DNA of 40,366 nt from IMG/VR virus record IMGVR_UViG_3300032305_000413, positions 1 to 40,366 of that record. One strand, written 5' to 3'. The notes under the pieces were generated by a model that saw nothing but the letters and a program-made list of their open reading frames with translations, searched no databases and was not told the origin of the DNA. A program made the translations under genes and the position numbers. Shown in pieces: positions 24,184 through 29,990 of the stretch. The DNA is from a virus (taxonomy: Duplodnaviria; Caudoviricetes). Position 1 is the first letter of the stretch, and the number at the start of each line of letters is the position of its first letter.

Positions 24184-24825
24184 ATGACAGCAACAACAGC
24201 AACTAAGGCAACAGGCAAGGCAAGCAAGGCGGAGGCACTTTCAACAATCACTAAGGCGCTAGAACAGGCTCATGAGTTGATTAAGACAGAAACAGGCGCA
24301 CCCCGCGCCACTCTCCTAGTGACTCGTGACCTCAAGGGCAGAAAGGGACATTTCACCCCTTACACCCCTTGGCAGGCAGGCGAGGAATCTTTCTCAGAAA
24401 TCGCGTTCAATCTTGAGCATTTCACGACACCAGAAGAACTACTTTCTACCCTCCTCCATGAGGTGGCGCACTCAATCAATCACATGAACGGGATTGAGGA
24501 TTGCTCCTCAAATCAGTATCACAACGCTAAGTTCAAGGCTCAAGCCGAGGCGTTAGGTCTTAAGACAATCGAGATTAAGGGCAAGGGACACGCTGCAACA
24601 GAACTCACCGAGTTAGGCGCTAAGCGATGGAAGAAAGCCCTCACCATCCTATCGAACGCGTTCGATTTAACCGCCCTAGGAGGCGAACAGGCGAAGAAGA
24701 AAGGCAGAAACACCAACCTAATCAAGGCAATGTGCGAATGTGAGAATGTAATCCGCCTTTCTCGCGGTGTCCTTGAGTCAGGCGTGACATGCAACCAGTG
24801 CGAGGAGGTGTTCAAGGAGGCGTAA
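24184..24825 (+). CDS. SprT-like zinc metalloprotease with C-terminal Zn ribbon
   Basis: TLLHEVAH (HExxH), YHNAKF and CEC...CNQC; GACAGGAGA RBS. Confidence 0.8.
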   Translation: MTATTATKATGKASKAEALSTITKALEQAHELIKTETGAPRATLLVTRDLKGRKGHFTPYTPWQAGEESFSEIAFNLEHFTTPEELLSTLLHEVAHSINHMNGIEDCSSNQYHNAKFKAQAEALGLKTIEIKGKGHAATELTELGAKRWKKALTILSNAFDLTALGGEQAKKKGRNTNLIKAMCECENVIRLSRGVLESGVTCNQCEEVFKEA

Positions 24826-24832
24826 GCCTCCC

Positions 24833-24879
24833 GCCCCCTGCCCGATAAGTCGGCGCGAGTTCATGACTCACAGGGGGCA
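24833..24879 (+). ncRNA. Mini-tRNA-like element E1
   Basis: 7-bp stem GCCCCCT/AGGGGGC plus A; hairpin CCGA-TAAG-TCGG; arm GCGAG-TTCATGA-CTCAC. Confidence 0.55.
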
Positions 24880-24940
24880 CGAGTTAGAGAGAAAGTCTCT
24901 CTGACTTAAGACATAACGAAAGCGATAGGAGAACAGCAAC

Positions 24941-25141
24941 ATGAACACCATCACAGCAACCAACTACAAGGGCAGAGTCTGGACATGTGACAGCCATAAC
25001 GCCCGAATTGAGGCGATGATTAACAAGGGCAAGATAGCCGAGGCGATGGCGCTAGTTGATGTCTTAAACCCTAAAAAATCGCGGGGAATCTGCTCCGCGT
25101 GTCGGGGATTATGGCTCGAAACACCGCCAATAAATCGGTGA
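24941..25141 (+). CDS. Hypothetical early protein (CxxH/CxxC)
   Basis: 66 aa, AGGAGA RBS. Confidence 0.65.
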   Translation: MNTITATNYKGRVWTCDSHNARIEAMINKGKIAEAMALVDVLNPKKSRGICSACRGLWLETPPINR

Positions 25142-25160
25142 CTTAAGACAGAAGAAAAAA

Positions 25161-25217
25161 TGTGAGGTAACTCACAGCCCTAAATCCTTGACAGGGGGCG
25201 CGTGTTCACGACACGAT
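25161..25217 (+). promoter_or_regulatory. CRP/GlxR box 2 with candidate promoter
   Basis: TGTGA-GGTAAC-TCACA (25161-25176), an 11-bp gap, then TTGACA-N18-CACGAT. Confidence 0.65.
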
Positions 25218-25224
25218 TAGGGCA
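25177..25224 (+). ncRNA. Mini-tRNA-like element E2
   Basis: Stem GCCCTAA/TTAGGGC plus A; hairpin CCT-TGAC-AGG; arm CGTG-TTCACGA-CACG. Confidence 0.55.
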
Positions 25225-25272
25225 CGACATAGGGAGAGAGTCTCCTTATGTATTAAGACGGGAGAAAAAAGA

Positions 25273-25656
25273 ATGGCAACAAGAAGCACAATCGGTATTA
25301 AGTCAGAAGATGGCACAGTCAAAGCGATTTACTGCCACTGGGACGGATACCCTGCGGGGGTAGGTCTAGGCTTGATTGACAACTACAACAGCAAGGCACA
25401 GGCAGAGGCGCTAATCGCTCTCGGCGGATTCTCCTCACTCATGGAGACACTAGAGGAGACAAAGGCTGGAGCCTATGGCACCGAAAGCGACAAGGCGCGA
25501 GCCTTTACAGGTGTTCAAGATTGGCTGGACAATTTCAACTCAGGCGAGGAGTATGCCTACCTTTACGAGGAGGGCAAAGGCTGGGTCTATTTCTCAGATG
25601 AGGCGTTTGACGAACACATGGCGATTAACTTAAAGCGTGAAGAAAGTGTGGCTTAA
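25273..25656 (+). CDS. Conserved phage early protein (YCHWDGYP family, function unknown)
   Basis: M.TRS.IG...IYCHWDGYP.GVG and EEYAYLY motifs. Confidence 0.75.
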   Translation: MATRSTIGIKSEDGTVKAIYCHWDGYPAGVGLGLIDNYNSKAQAEALIALGGFSSLMETLEETKAGAYGTESDKARAFTGVQDWLDNFNSGEEYAYLYEEGKGWVYFSDEAFDEHMAINLKREESVA

Positions 25657-25659
25657 GAC

Positions 25660-25809
25660 ATGAAAATCACTTACGAAATCTACAGCAAGCGCGGAACATT
25701 CTCAGGCTTGAACACGACCACGAGCATGCAAAAGATGGCAGAGATTAAAGCCATGCTTGAGGCTAACGGGCAAGCCTGCACCATCGTGAAGATTACCGAG
25801 GAGGTATGA
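25660..25809 (+). CDS. Hypothetical early protein (49 aa)
   Basis: Below the cutoff; TAAGACATG stop-start junction; MKITYEIYSKRG...EEV. Confidence 0.6.
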   Translation: MKITYEIYSKRGTFSGLNTTTSMQKMAEIKAMLEANGQACTIVKITEEV

Positions 25810-25829
25810 CTTAAGACAGAAAGAAAACA

Positions 25830-28145: not shown

Positions 28146-28299
28146 TAAAGAACTTAAGAGATTACACAGCGCAATAAAGAGAGCAAGGTCACAGCGAAAT
28201 GCCACGACTAATAATGAGGACTTCGACTACTGGCATGGCATAATGGAACATCACCTAGAAATACTGGGTGTATTACTTAAGACAGGAGAAAAGAAATGA
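28138..28299 (+). CDS. Hypothetical early protein (53 aa)
   Basis: Below the cutoff; MSDKELKRLHSAIKRARSQ...LLKTGEKK; ATGA overlap with the next gene. Confidence 0.55.
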   Translation: MSDKELKRLHSAIKRARSQRNATTNNEDFDYWHGIMEHHLEILGVLLKTGEKK

Positions 28300-28487
28300 C
28301 GATACAAGAAGTTGAACTACCCATAGAAAACCTCAAGAAAAAATACCGAGAAGAAATACAGTCAGTCATAAAAGTTATGGGACAAGTTGATGAAACAGAT
28401 GTCACATGGCACTACTACCAAGGGAAACTAGACGGGCTACGCCTTGCCTCATACTTTCTACCTAATCAAGAGGAGGAAAAGAAATGA
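28296..28487 (+). CDS. Hypothetical early protein
   Basis: 63 aa, AGACAGGAGA RBS. Confidence 0.65.
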   Translation: MTIQEVELPIENLKKKYREEIQSVIKVMGQVDETDVTWHYYQGKLDGLRLASYFLPNQEEEKK

Positions 28488-28729
28488 ACCACACGATTAC
28501 AACTGGGGCTATGAGCAAAGCAACCACAGCCTACGACAAGGACTTCGACCTCACCATTGATGGCGTAGAGATGCGAGTAATCCTGCATTGGGATGACATG
28601 GATGGCTACGAACTTACATGGCTGGACAAGGAAGGTAGATTCATTACATCACCTGACTGGCTTGATGAGGTAGATGATTTCTGTCTTAAGTTAGATAGCA
28701 CAGAACCACACAGCAAGGTGTTACTATGA
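28484..28729 (+). CDS. Hypothetical acidic early protein
   Basis: 81 aa, AGGAGG RBS. Confidence 0.65.
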   Translation: MNHTITTGAMSKATTAYDKDFDLTIDGVEMRVILHWDDMDGYELTWLDKEGRFITSPDWLDEVDDFCLKLDSTEPHSKVLL

Positions 28730-28923
28730 CAGTCTTAATGGCGTGTTTAAAGTGCGACATAGTGGTAACCAATCCCAAGATTATTAACTACATGCTGGAG
28801 ATGTGTGACCCTTGTGTCTTAAACCATAATGAACTATCCAACCAAGCCATAGATACATACCTACATGAGAAGGCAGAGGCAGAGCGCGATGCTAAACTTA
28901 AAAGTGATTCACCCGCACGCTAG
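28726..28923 (+). CDS. Hypothetical protein with two CxxC
   Basis: 65 aa, ATGA coupling. Confidence 0.55.
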   Translation: MTVLMACLKCDIVVTNPKIINYMLEMCDPCVLNHNELSNQAIDTYLHEKAEAERDAKLKSDSPAR

Positions 28924-29332
28924 ATTATGGATAGTTACAGCGGTAGGTCTAGCCATAGCACTGGTAGTTACACAGCCTACTGCGCTGGTACATCAGCCAA
29001 AGGGTAGGTTGATTGCCCACTACGAGAACGATTACCAACGCTATGCCATTGACCAACTAACCAAGCAAGACAAACTAGAGCAATGGTCTTGCTTGTATGA
29101 ACTCTGGACACGCGAGTCAAACTGGCGACCAAAAGCCAAGAACAAACAGTCTAGTGCCATGGGTATTCCACAGTTACTGGACAGTACATGGGAGAACATC
29201 GGTATTAAGCCAACCTGGAATGGCAGGAAGCAGATTGATGCTGGGCTTGTCTATCTGGAACACAGATACGGAAAGTCAGGCAACAACATCTGCCGAGCAT
29301 ACGCTCATCACCTTGCCAAGGGTTGGTATTAA
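28889..29332 (+). CDS. Membrane-anchored lytic transglycosylase (SLT/lysozyme-like)
   Basis: N-terminal TM segment; C...LW.RESNW...A.N..SSA.GIPQ and QI.AGL.Y...RYG motifs. The start is probably ATG 28889. Confidence 0.8.
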   Translation: MLNLKVIHPHARLWIVTAVGLAIALVVTQPTALVHQPKGRLIAHYENDYQRYAIDQLTKQDKLEQWSCLYELWTRESNWRPKAKNKQSSAMGIPQLLDSTWENIGIKPTWNGRKQIDAGLVYLEHRYGKSGNNICRAYAHHLAKGWY

Positions 29333-29335
29333 GAC

Positions 29336-29686
29336 ATGAAAAATAACAGACCAGAGTTTCATCAAGTAGTTGACGAGATTGCTAGTAAGAATAGATACAA
29401 CAAAGGGCTAACGGTTTTCGTACTTAAGTACAACCCATCCCTATGGGACAAGGCTATCTGCCGAGGCATTGACACTGAAATTTTCTACCCAGCCCAGGAG
29501 TTATTTACTCGTGACGAGGAGCGCATGTTTGAACGCATGTGCAATGAGTGTCCAGTCATGATGGCTTGTTTAGAGTGGGGTTTAGCCCATGAAAGGTACG
29601 GAGTTTGGGGTGGCACTACACCACCAATGCGACACAAAATTCGTAAGCGTATAGGCTGGGGTTTGACAGACCCACAGCATAAGTAA
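29336..29686 (+). CDS. whiB: WhiB-family Fe-S transcription factor
   Basis: W..A.C...D.E.F, CNECPV...CL and GVWGG motifs. Confidence 0.92.
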   Translation: MKNNRPEFHQVVDEIASKNRYNKGLTVFVLKYNPSLWDKAICRGIDTEIFYPAQELFTRDEERMFERMCNECPVMMACLEWGLAHERYGVWGGTTPPMRHKIRKRIGWGLTDPQHK

Positions 29687-29692
29687 TAGACT
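29663..29692 (+). promoter_or_regulatory. Housekeeping-sigma-type promoter for the candidate sRNA
   Basis: TTGACA (29663-29668)-N18-TAGACT (29687-29692); the predicted +1 near 29699 is the first base of a hairpin. Confidence 0.7.
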
Positions 29693-29698
29693 TATCTA

Positions 29699-29769
29699 GC
29701 ACACAAGCGAGAGTTTGTGTGCATAGAAAAGCCCAGCGATTCTCTCCTGTCTCGCTGGGTTTCTCTATG
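29699..29769 (+). ncRNA. Candidate anti-RBS small RNA (two hairpins; the second doubles as a bidirectional terminator)
   Basis: GCACACAAGC-GAGA-GTTTGTGTGC, then an 18-bp stem with loop TTCTCTCCTGTC complementary to the early-gene GACAGGAGA motif. Confidence 0.65.
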
Positions 29770-29771
29770 TA

Positions 29772-29990
29772 TTAAGACTCAATGTGTTTACACCAAGTTA
29801 AACTAACACTGTAAACAAACAAAGCAATTTCAATACCACGAACACGCGGAAACTCTTTAGGAATCTTGTAATGTTTATGCATTGGGGTGCTATGCATGTA
29901 GTTTATTCCCAAGCCAAAATGAATAGGTTTCTTTTCTATAACAAATGCAAAGTCACGATTAAAAACCATTCCCTTTTTATACTTAAGCAT
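29772..29990 (-). CDS. Hypothetical protein (AT-rich gene)
   Basis: 72-aa ORF, last in the replication operon. Confidence 0.5.
   Translation of the reverse strand: MLKYKKGMVFNRDFAFVIEKKPIHFGLGINYMHSTPMHKHYKIPKEFPRVRGIEIALFVYSVSLTWCKHIES

What the first reader, a model, noticed from the sequence alone, without database searches (positions are those of the whole stretch)
24281..29778. Highly iterated TTAAGAC half-palindrome concentrated in the early region and imprinted on proteins
Seen: at least 25 TTAAGAC/GTCTTAA sites in 5.5 kb, where roughly one is expected by chance. Density falls to about 9 in 30-37 kb and about 10 in 1-23.5 kb (manual counts). Full GTCTTAAGAC palindromes occur at 21891, 24557 and 31915. 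Many copies form gene junctions (TAAGACATG, TTAAGACAGGAG), while others sit inside ORFs in either orientation and recur as (L/I)KT or VL(I/N/M) peptides. That argues for a DNA-level signal. Established analogy: mycobacteriophage stoperators, although those are asymmetric and paired with a repressor, and none is recognisable here. Inference: sites for a dimeric phage or host protein that coats, silences, protects or pulls in the first-entering DNA.
Basis: partly seen in the sequence, partly recalled or inferred. Interest (0 to 1): 0.8.

Follow-up and report, generated by a model that had tools for sequence, protein, structure and literature searches.

The report
Operator array for SprT-fold phage repressor
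This freshwater phage repeats a short DNA word every ~210 bases across its early genes, and across unrelated phages such words go together with a protein annotated as a 'SprT-like protease', which likely binds them through a small zinc ribbon and likely acts as an unrecognised kind of phage repressor.

Summary
Confirmed: 26 TTAAGAC/GTCTTAA sites in 24281-29778 (about 1 expected), 49 genome-wide; the excess survives synonymous shuffles. The array follows one gene, the first early gene (24184-24825; SprT/Spartan-fold metalloprotease plus C-terminal zinc ribbon), not the terminase tree, WhiB or the sigma-like protein: 69 of 72 relatives with this gene type carry it, 0 of 61 without. Homologues with a KQ(T/S/G)TR ribbon segment carry GT(T/C/G)TAAAC instead: 8 of 8 cultured phages of Actinomycetota and Proteobacteria picked by protein, against 0 of 4 lacking the segment; a motif-first scan found the gene in 28 of 34 dense contigs and 3 of 41 sparse ones. 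Dead-protease and ribbon-only versions keep arrays. Sites often sit in the gene's own promoter; a homodimer is predicted. Best reading: operator/stoperator-like sites for a dimeric SprT-fold repressor (binding about 0.85, repression about 0.6; neither shown). It would supply the missing cluster AZ immunity repressor. Against: the window's own promoters have no exact site between -35 and -10, and no integrase was found. The scan noted the array-SprT link before on other DNA (e1-5353731).

The parts
24281..29778 (.). Dense array of 26 TTAAGAC/GTCTTAA sites (inferred operators) over the early module
24184..24825 (+). First early gene: 213-aa SprT-like metalloprotease fold plus C-terminal zinc ribbon; inferred reader of the sites
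   Evidence: Pfam PF10263 E 6e-7; model pLDDT 75; SPRTN 6mdx Z 8.9; co-segregation
24457..24471 (+). HExxH motif (H92-E93-H96), intact here, lost in the GTTTAAAC/GTTTAGAC relatives
   Evidence: alignment A1
24703..24822 (+). Zinc ribbon (residues 174-213) with the GRNTN segment that goes with TTAAGAC (KQxTR in homologues with GTNTAAAC)
24078..24164 (+). Putative promoter of the first gene: perfect CRP-type box 24078-24093, TTGAGG at 24104, one-mismatch site TCAAGAC at 24158 in the leader
   Evidence: promoter reading is inference
25143..25259 (+). Putative promoter 2: site 25143, CRP-type box 25161-25176, TTGACA 25188, site 25253 on the ribosome-binding site
25811..25861 (+). Putative promoter 3: site 25811, CRP-type box 25830-25845, TTGAAG 25856
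26725..26767 (+). Putative promoter 4: site 26725, CRP-type box 26736-26751, TTGACA 26762
30224..36938 (.). 10 further sites in the replication arm, including the palindrome at 31915-31924 on the primase stop
4355..23415 (.). 13 sites inside late genes, including the palindrome at 21891-21900 in the terminase gene

Best explanation
The TTAAGAC copies are an evenly spread array that goes with the phage's first early gene, and they are likely operator sites for its product, a SprT-fold protein predicted to dimerise through its protease domain, which likely reads the word with its C-terminal zinc ribbon and would turn early transcription down. Steps: (1) host RNA polymerase, likely helped by host CRP, starts at four early promoters (boxes shown, activation inferred); (2) the SprT-fold protein is made first (gene position shown); (3) the dimer binds C/A-TTAAGAC-A sites (gene-word coupling shown, binding inferred, about 0.85); (4) sites beside promoters, on ribosome-binding sites and inside genes act as operators and roadblocks, giving negative feedback that ends the early phase or holds a dormant non-integrated genome (inferred, about 0.6); (5) the intact HExxH may release repression by self-cleavage (speculative).
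For: Coupling in the family: of 133 dereplicated early regions, 69 of 72 with the active-site form have 8 or more TTAAGAC in 4.5 kb, 0 of 25 without the gene and 0 of 36 with the dead form; those 36 carry GTTTAAAC (34) or GTTTAGAC (2). It is the only family in 33 of 33 array-bearing E7-clade modules; shared genes hold 157 sites in 47.1 kb with it and 9 in 39.2 kb without; the replication arm outside the module follows the same rule. Motif type is incongruent with TerL. Motif-first scan: gene found in 28 of 34 GTTTAAAC-dense contigs, 3 of 41 sparse (Fisher p 1e-11), many unrelated to this family. Protein-first test on 12 cultured phages: 8 of 8 with KQ(T/S/G)TR have GT(T/G)TAAAC arrays (5 to 39 copies), 0 of 4 without it have any. 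Ribbon-only 55-aa genes (L572, L574, L585) keep 15-37 sites. Sites lie in the gene's own promoter region in 34 of 34 B-type modules and in Yang, Liebe, UNTPL, Mica, ECO1230-10; in Zeta1847 they fill the -35/-10 spacer of about ten repeated promoters. Homodimer score 0.69 against best control 0.00; mark reached by 20 of 30 solved homodimers and 1 of 23 single chains; runs agree in at least 92% of contacts, pLDDT at least 84. The AZ preprint reports no known immunity repressor, and clear plaques for Liebe (N-truncated SprT) against turbid for Maureen; the missing part aligns with residues 1-34, which hold the predicted interface helix.
Against: No binding or repression was measured. In the window the gene's own promoter has only a one-mismatch site and no promoter has a site in its -35/-10 spacer; only 13 of 38 and 15 of 33 TTAAGAC-type modules have an exact site within 200 nt upstream of the gene. 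17 of 26 sites are not next to a start and both orientations are used. No integrase or partition gene was found among 63 ORFs, so there is no evident lysogeny to maintain. Three of 72 active-form modules fall under 8 sites (L359 0, L366 6, L375 7). Phage E7 lacks the gene yet has 14 TTAAGAC outside its early region, and late-side density is equal with and without the gene in that clade (4.7 per 10 kb). In the TTAAGAC motif-first scan L674, L692 and L731 had 9 heptamers each and no homologue in the locus. HExxH is kept in all TTAAGAC types seen, so proteolysis may matter more than repression. Relatives share ancestry, so counts are not independent events.
Confidence: 0.62

Rival explanations
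1. The same protein binds the sites, but as a protective coat: a DNA-tethered, SPRTN-like protease that clears host proteins (nucleases, silencers, defence sensors) from newly entered phage DNA.
For: Closest fold is SPRTN bound to DNA (Z 8.9, rmsd 3.0, 103 aligned) then Wss1 (Z 7.8); spacing is more even than random (gap CV 0.52-0.64 against 0.92); density falls away from the early end; HExxH kept in 140 of 150 distant homologues.
Against: Dead and ribbon-only forms keep full arrays; sites sit in promoter spacers and at +1 in many phages; in Yang and UNTPL sites are spread over the whole genome at about one per 1.5-2 kb, too sparse for a coat.
Confidence: 0.18
2. The sites are self-marks or recombination hot spots used by the protein: they protect own DNA from phage nucleases or rival phages, or seed the shuffling of small early genes.
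For: Small early genes move freely between modules; many sites lie at gene junctions; three spellings coexist on near-identical terminases.
Against: Modules without the gene or array shuffle the same genes; sites inside long genes and in promoter spacers are not explained.
Confidence: 0.08
3. The sites bind a host repressor or nucleoid protein, and the SprT-like protein is an anti-repressor that cleaves or blocks it (as recalled for ImmA/IrrE-type metalloproteases).
For: Protease fold; GTTTAAAC/GTCTAAAC fit a recalled GntR/HutC consensus GT-N-TA-N-AC; the same promoters use a host CRP-type box.
Against: One protein signature goes with one word in phages of Arthrobacter, Microbacterium, Streptomyces, Methylophilales, Dinoroseobacter, Burkholderia and E. 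coli; phages with 97% identical TerL differ in having the array; a host-like genome has TTAAGAC at chance level (35 against 32-46 in 400 kb) and the host copies looked at are mostly in coding sequence; ribbon-only genes suffice.
Confidence: 0.06
4. The signal acts on RNA or is a by-product of codon and ribosome-binding-site usage.
For: Sense bias (637 sense, 202 antisense) and overlap with GACAGGAG and TAA.
Against: Antisense copies are still about 1 per kb; synonymous shuffles do not reproduce the count; GACAGGAG is preceded by TTAA in 135 of 209 cases with the gene and 6 of 71 without.
Confidence: 0.02

Closest known systems
Cluster A mycobacteriophage repressor-stoperator system (L5, TipsytheTRex; PMC9283540, PMC6550527, passages read)
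   Same: 20-40 short sites per genome, in promoters and elsewhere; word varies with the cognate phage protein.
   Different: There the repressor is an HTH plus Stoperator-domain monomer on oriented 13-bp asymmetric intergenic sites in temperate phages. Here the candidate has no HTH, is a predicted dimer of a protease fold, and the 7-10 bp sites lie in both orientations, often inside ORFs.
Cluster AZ Arthrobacter 'SprT-like protease' (Lizalica gp46; bioRxiv 10.1101/2025.05.26.655371, section on lysogeny read)
   Same: [quoted passage not shown]
   Different: They predict SPRTN-like protease function and name no binding site; the GTGTAAAC array and the site in its own promoter are not in the passages read.
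SPRTN / Wss1 DNA-dependent metalloproteases (PDB 6mdx, 5xbn; PMC5127644, passages read)
   Same: SprT fold with HExxH followed by a zinc-binding part; SPRTN cleaves itself when DNA is added.
   Different: SPRTN is not known as sequence-specific (recalled); here a fixed word follows the ribbon and the active site is dispensable in many members.
Lambda cI / LexA repressors (recalled)
   Same: DNA-binding domain joined to a protease-fold dimerisation domain.
   Different: Different folds (zincin and zinc ribbon against S24 peptidase and HTH), reversed domain order, many more sites; self-cleavage untested.
Host-factor site arrays in phages, e.g. CtrA (PMC9437464, listing and start of abstract only)
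   Same: Phage genomes carrying many sites of one regulator; the four CRP-type boxes here are of this kind.
   Different: The TTAAGAC word follows a phage gene, not the host.

Membership tests
Cluster A stoperator system | More than 20 short conserved sites across the genome | tested here: met
   49 sites
Cluster A stoperator system | 13-bp asymmetric sites oriented with transcription | tested here: not met
   7-10 bp pseudo-palindrome; 19 sense and 7 antisense in the early region
Cluster A stoperator system | HTH plus Stoperator-domain repressor | tested here: not met
   The covarying protein is SprT fold plus zinc ribbon; the only HTH protein found (sigma-like) is shared by all motif types
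Cluster A stoperator system | Repression of initiation and elongation | not testable with these tools
   Only site position could be examined
SprT-like (PF10263) metalloproteases | SprT domain with HExxH | tested here: met
   29.7 bits, cut-off 25.6; H92/E93/H96; Z 8.9 to 6mdx
SprT-like (PF10263) metalloproteases | DNA-activated proteolysis or self-cleavage | not testable with these tools
   No assay; motif lost in B and C types
Known sequence-specific zinc-ribbon DNA-binding domains | Structural match of the C-terminal domain | tested here: inconclusive
   51-residue model pLDDT 80; best Z 2.6, no Foldseek hit under E 0.001
Host-wide iterated words (HIP1, uptake sequences, Chi) | Word over-represented in the host chromosome | tested here: not met
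   35 against 32-46 expected in 400 kb of G161; below the reversed control in all 61 genomes of its family sample; true host not known
CRP-family binding sites | TGTGA-N6-TCACA upstream of promoters and CRP in the host | tested here: met
   4 exact boxes, 0.12 expected; 36 of 38 same-clade modules have one or more; CRP in 5 of 5 host-like genomes

The most novel reading that the evidence does not exclude
Phage 'SprT-like proteases' are a widespread, unrecognised repressor class: a zincin domain for dimerisation and DNA-triggered self-cleavage joined to a zinc ribbon with a simple code (GRN[T/K]N reads CTTAAGAC, KQ[T/S/G]TR reads GTNTAAAC), a convergent cI/LexA. It is the missing immunity repressor of cluster AZ and related temperate phages, and in integrase-free phages of freshwater acI bacteria it holds a CRP-gated dormant state.
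Probability: 0.3. Interest if true: 0.9.

Novelty: new variant of a known kind. Interest (0 to 1): 0.75.

Why it matters
It gives a binding site and a likely function to a large family now annotated only as proteases (3860 clusters at 50% identity; 164-169 records of cultured phages). It makes an open question directly testable in laboratory strains: cluster AZ phages form lysogens but have no identified repressor, and a natural clear-plaque mutant exists. A 50-residue domain whose short segment tracks an 8-bp word would be a compact new DNA reader. For phages of the most abundant freshwater bacteria it suggests that early genes are wired to host CRP and to a phage brake.

Tried and rejected
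Host-wide word: no enrichment in a Planktophila-like genome or its family sample; host copies are mostly coding. One copy is conserved upstream of a sufR-like gene, but the phage sites lack its flanks; rejected as SufR decoys. WhiB, sigma-like protein, primase, SLT: shared by all motif types. Terminase: tree incongruent (quick tree only, the careful search did not finish). Helical phasing of sites: none (R 0.03-0.14 in the three large groups). PDB sequence search: nothing. Fold search of the ribbon alone: no clear match. ESM Atlas on the ribbon: best 0.84, lead only. Distant homologues with other ribbon segments (Dismas, Attoomi, phiAsp2, Dulem virus 37) and Streptomyces phage Immanuel3 show none of these words; phiAsp2 and Dulem 37 have other repeats, not followed. 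The genome-contig scan with WhiB found only a Kitasatospora locus. Two locus scans with broad alignments could not run. The TTAAGAC motif-first scan gave only 2 clear arrays in 80 loci, both with the gene, so this spelling was not shown outside the family. In the GTTTAAAC scan 49 of 129 loci had no flanks and were dropped; 3 sparse records could not be searched whole. Literature searches that found no description of the array or of the SprT-word link: (open-access library only). No reads were laid; expression, genome ends and methylation are untested.
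Full report
Setting. The window is the whole 40.4-kb record G000, a podovirus-type actinophage with WhiB, a sigma-like protein, primase, helicase, Cas4-like exonuclease and no integrase or partition gene among 63 ORFs scanned. Its terminase is 51% identical to Streptomyces Beephvirinae and 46% to OX376640, which PMC10202952 (first of two parts and supplement rows read) describes as phage E7 of Ca. 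Planktophila. The host is therefore likely Nanopelagicales (inference). The early module runs 24184-29686 on the + strand, back to back with the terminase.

Observation. 26 sites lie in 24281-29778 against about 1 expected, 49 in the genome against 5.3. Synonymous shuffles give 4-5 in early ORFs against 15 seen. The logo is G[T/A/G][C/A]TTAAGAC[A]: an invariant half with a tolerant mirror half. Four exact TGTGA-N6-TCACA boxes (0.12 expected) precede -35-like hexamers; three have a site 4-12 nt upstream.

What the array follows. Relatives found by terminase have an array at the same place in three spellings: TTAAGAC, GTTTAAAC, GTTTAGAC. Spelling is incongruent with TerL: the TTAAGAC label needs at least 3 changes on starred branches (quick tree). 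WhiB, the sigma-like protein and primase are common to all spellings. The one family present in all three is the first gene. I pooled loci from five scans, kept the 195 with at least 3.5 kb upstream of the TerL start and dereplicated them to 133: active-site form 69 of 72 with 8 or more TTAAGAC (38 of 38 in the window's clade, 31 of 34 in the E7 clade); gene absent 0 of 25; dead form 0 of 36, all with GTTTAAAC (34) or GTTTAGAC (2). Gene-bearing loci were partly fetched with the gene as query, so these are not population frequencies. Linkage alone does not explain it: gene families shared by E7-clade modules hold 157 sites in 47.1 kb when the gene is present and 9 in 39.2 kb when absent, and the replication arm beyond the module has 13.3 TTAAGAC per 10 kb in A types against 0.17 in B, and 25.4 GTTTAAAC in B against 0.68 in A. 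The clear exception, L359, has no TTAA, CATG, GATC or GGCC in 14.6 kb, which reads as restriction avoidance; it keeps 8 TAAGAC and the gene is no longer first. Against: on the late side of the E7 clade density is the same with or without the gene (4.7 per 10 kb).

The protein. Pfam SprT-like; AlphaFold model pLDDT 75; best fold matches SPRTN (Z 8.9, rmsd 3.0, 103 aligned) and Wss1 (Z 7.8). B and C types have lost HExxH but keep the C-terminal Cys ribbon with invariant R191 and S193. The segment before the first Cys splits by word: (G/S/A)R(N/D)(T/K)N with TTAAGAC, KQ(T/S)TR with GTTTAAAC and GTCTAAAC. The ribbon alone has no clear fold match. A homodimer is predicted through residues 15-27, 41-49, 61-70 and 161-167, leaving the ribbons out of the interface: score 0.69, best control 0.00, contacts agreeing at least 92%, pLDDT at least 84; the mark was reached by 20 of 30 solved homodimers and 1 of 23 single chains.

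Two blind tests. Motif first: a contig in a small actinobacterial bin with 14 GTTTAAAC in 9 kb and no blastn match to this family encodes a homologue with KQGTR. A scan for paired GTTTAAAC gave 129 loci, 80 with flanks (75 contigs): 28 of 34 contigs with 0.8 or more sites per kb carry the gene, the 6 misses being 5-13.5 kb fragments, against 3 of 41 sparse ones (counted by hand from those tables; p 1e-11). Many hits have no other gene in common with the family and span 31-51% GC. In L572, L574 and L585 the gene is a stand-alone 55-aa ribbon with sites in its own promoter and 15-37 sites in the locus. Protein first: of 12 cultured phages taken from tblastn lists, the 8 with KQ(T/S/G)TR have arrays: Venkman 34 GTTTAAAC (2.2 expected), R26L 8 in the 30 of 79.5 kb read (0.2), ECO1230-10 5 (0.7), Mica 7 (control 1), Yang 20 GTGTAAAC (0.7), Zeta1847 22 (0.6), UNTPL 39 and Liebe 17 (controls 0); Dismas, Armstrong, Eden and CN2 (35 of 62 kb read) lack the segment and have none. 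The same scan for TTAAGACA pairs gave two clear arrays in 80 loci, both with a GRNTN gene; three loci had 9 heptamers without it. Hosts in two phyla make a host reader unlikely, and a host-like genome has the word at chance level.

What binding would do. In B types 34 of 34 modules have a site within 200 nt of the gene's start, often between TTGACA and the -10 or at +1. The same holds for Yang, Liebe, UNTPL, Mica and ECO1230-10, and about ten repeated Zeta1847 promoters have the site in the spacer. That is operator placement. The AZ preprint (passages and the lysogeny section read; its supplementary Fig. S3 was not seen) says no immunity repressor is known, and that Liebe, with a 33-aa N-terminal loss in this gene and three other changes, makes clear plaques while Maureen makes turbid ones. 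The lost part aligns with residues 1-34 here, which include the predicted interface helix. In the window's own type the placement is weaker: sites flank CRP boxes (64 of 141 boxes have one within 30 nt upstream), sit on ribosome-binding sites and inside genes, and the first promoter has only TCAAGAC. Spacing is more even than random and density falls from the early end. I commit to negative control of early transcription by operators and roadblocks (0.62), with a protective DNA-tethered protease as the main rival (0.18). SPRTN cleaves itself when DNA is added (PMC5127644, passages), so the intact HExxH could serve as a release switch; this is untested.

Comparison. It works like the cluster A repressor-stoperator system (PMC9283540, PMC6550527, passages) but is not a member: site length, symmetry and protein fold differ. 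The parallel to cI/LexA is recalled. Searches found no paper linking SprT-like phage proteins to a repeated word; closed-access papers and preprint supplements were not visible.

Verdict. Real, DNA-level, and very likely the binding-site array of the phage's first gene product. New variant of a known kind; interest 0.75.

Noticed in passing
window 24078-24093, 25161-25176, 25830-25845, 26736-26751: Four perfect CRP-type boxes in front of early promoters; 1-6 per module in 36 of 38 same-clade modules with the active-site gene and in 19 of 20 E7-clade modules with neither first-gene family, but in 1 of 36 dead-protease modules.
   Followed up: partly
L273, L277, L287, L291, L292 (first gene, e.g. 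L292:3948-4544 -): A second, unrelated first-gene family (about 199 aa, Lys-rich) goes with repeated 14-16 bp palindromes (GTTCGGCTAACCGAAC, GGTCGGCTAGCCGACC, TCCGTTTAAACGGA); L261 has a similar lone gene with CATATTATAATAATATG repeats. Likely a parallel regulator-operator pair.
   Followed up: partly
L359 (14.6 kb): No TTAA, CATG, GATC or GGCC at all; strong avoidance of four palindromic 4-mers, with the array eroded to non-T-TAAGAC.
   Followed up: partly
L521 (G301:C18): A 9-kb phage-like contig (vWA and AAA-type genes) inside a small actinobacterial genome bin, with 14 GTTTAAAC and a dead SprT homologue; probably mis-binned.
   Followed up: partly
L097:1108-2295 (-) (G201): A tyrosine integrase in a tRNA-linked island of a host-like genome has three TTAAGACA copies in 330 bp.
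   Followed up: no
L096 and L116, position 1501: GAATTAAGACACAATAGTGTTGTGAAA is conserved upstream of a sufR-like gene in host-like genomes; family name recalled from the sequence, not searched.
   Followed up: no
L066, L027 early modules: B and C modules carry genes that look like an amidoligase and a class II glutamine amidotransferase (names recalled) in place of the window's small genes.
   Followed up: no
plasmid hits of L567:213-776: 74 plasmids, mostly of Sphingobium and Sphingomonas, encode the same SprT subfamily; their repeats were not checked.
   Followed up: no
L082 (phage E7): ATATATA is the top word (22 copies, 1.8 expected) and recurs in E7-clade modules that lack the SprT gene.
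   Followed up: no
window 23800-24060: Non-coding stretch between terminase and early genes with GTCTCACATGTTGAGAC and C-rich repeats, similar in relatives; probable genome-end region.
   Followed up: no
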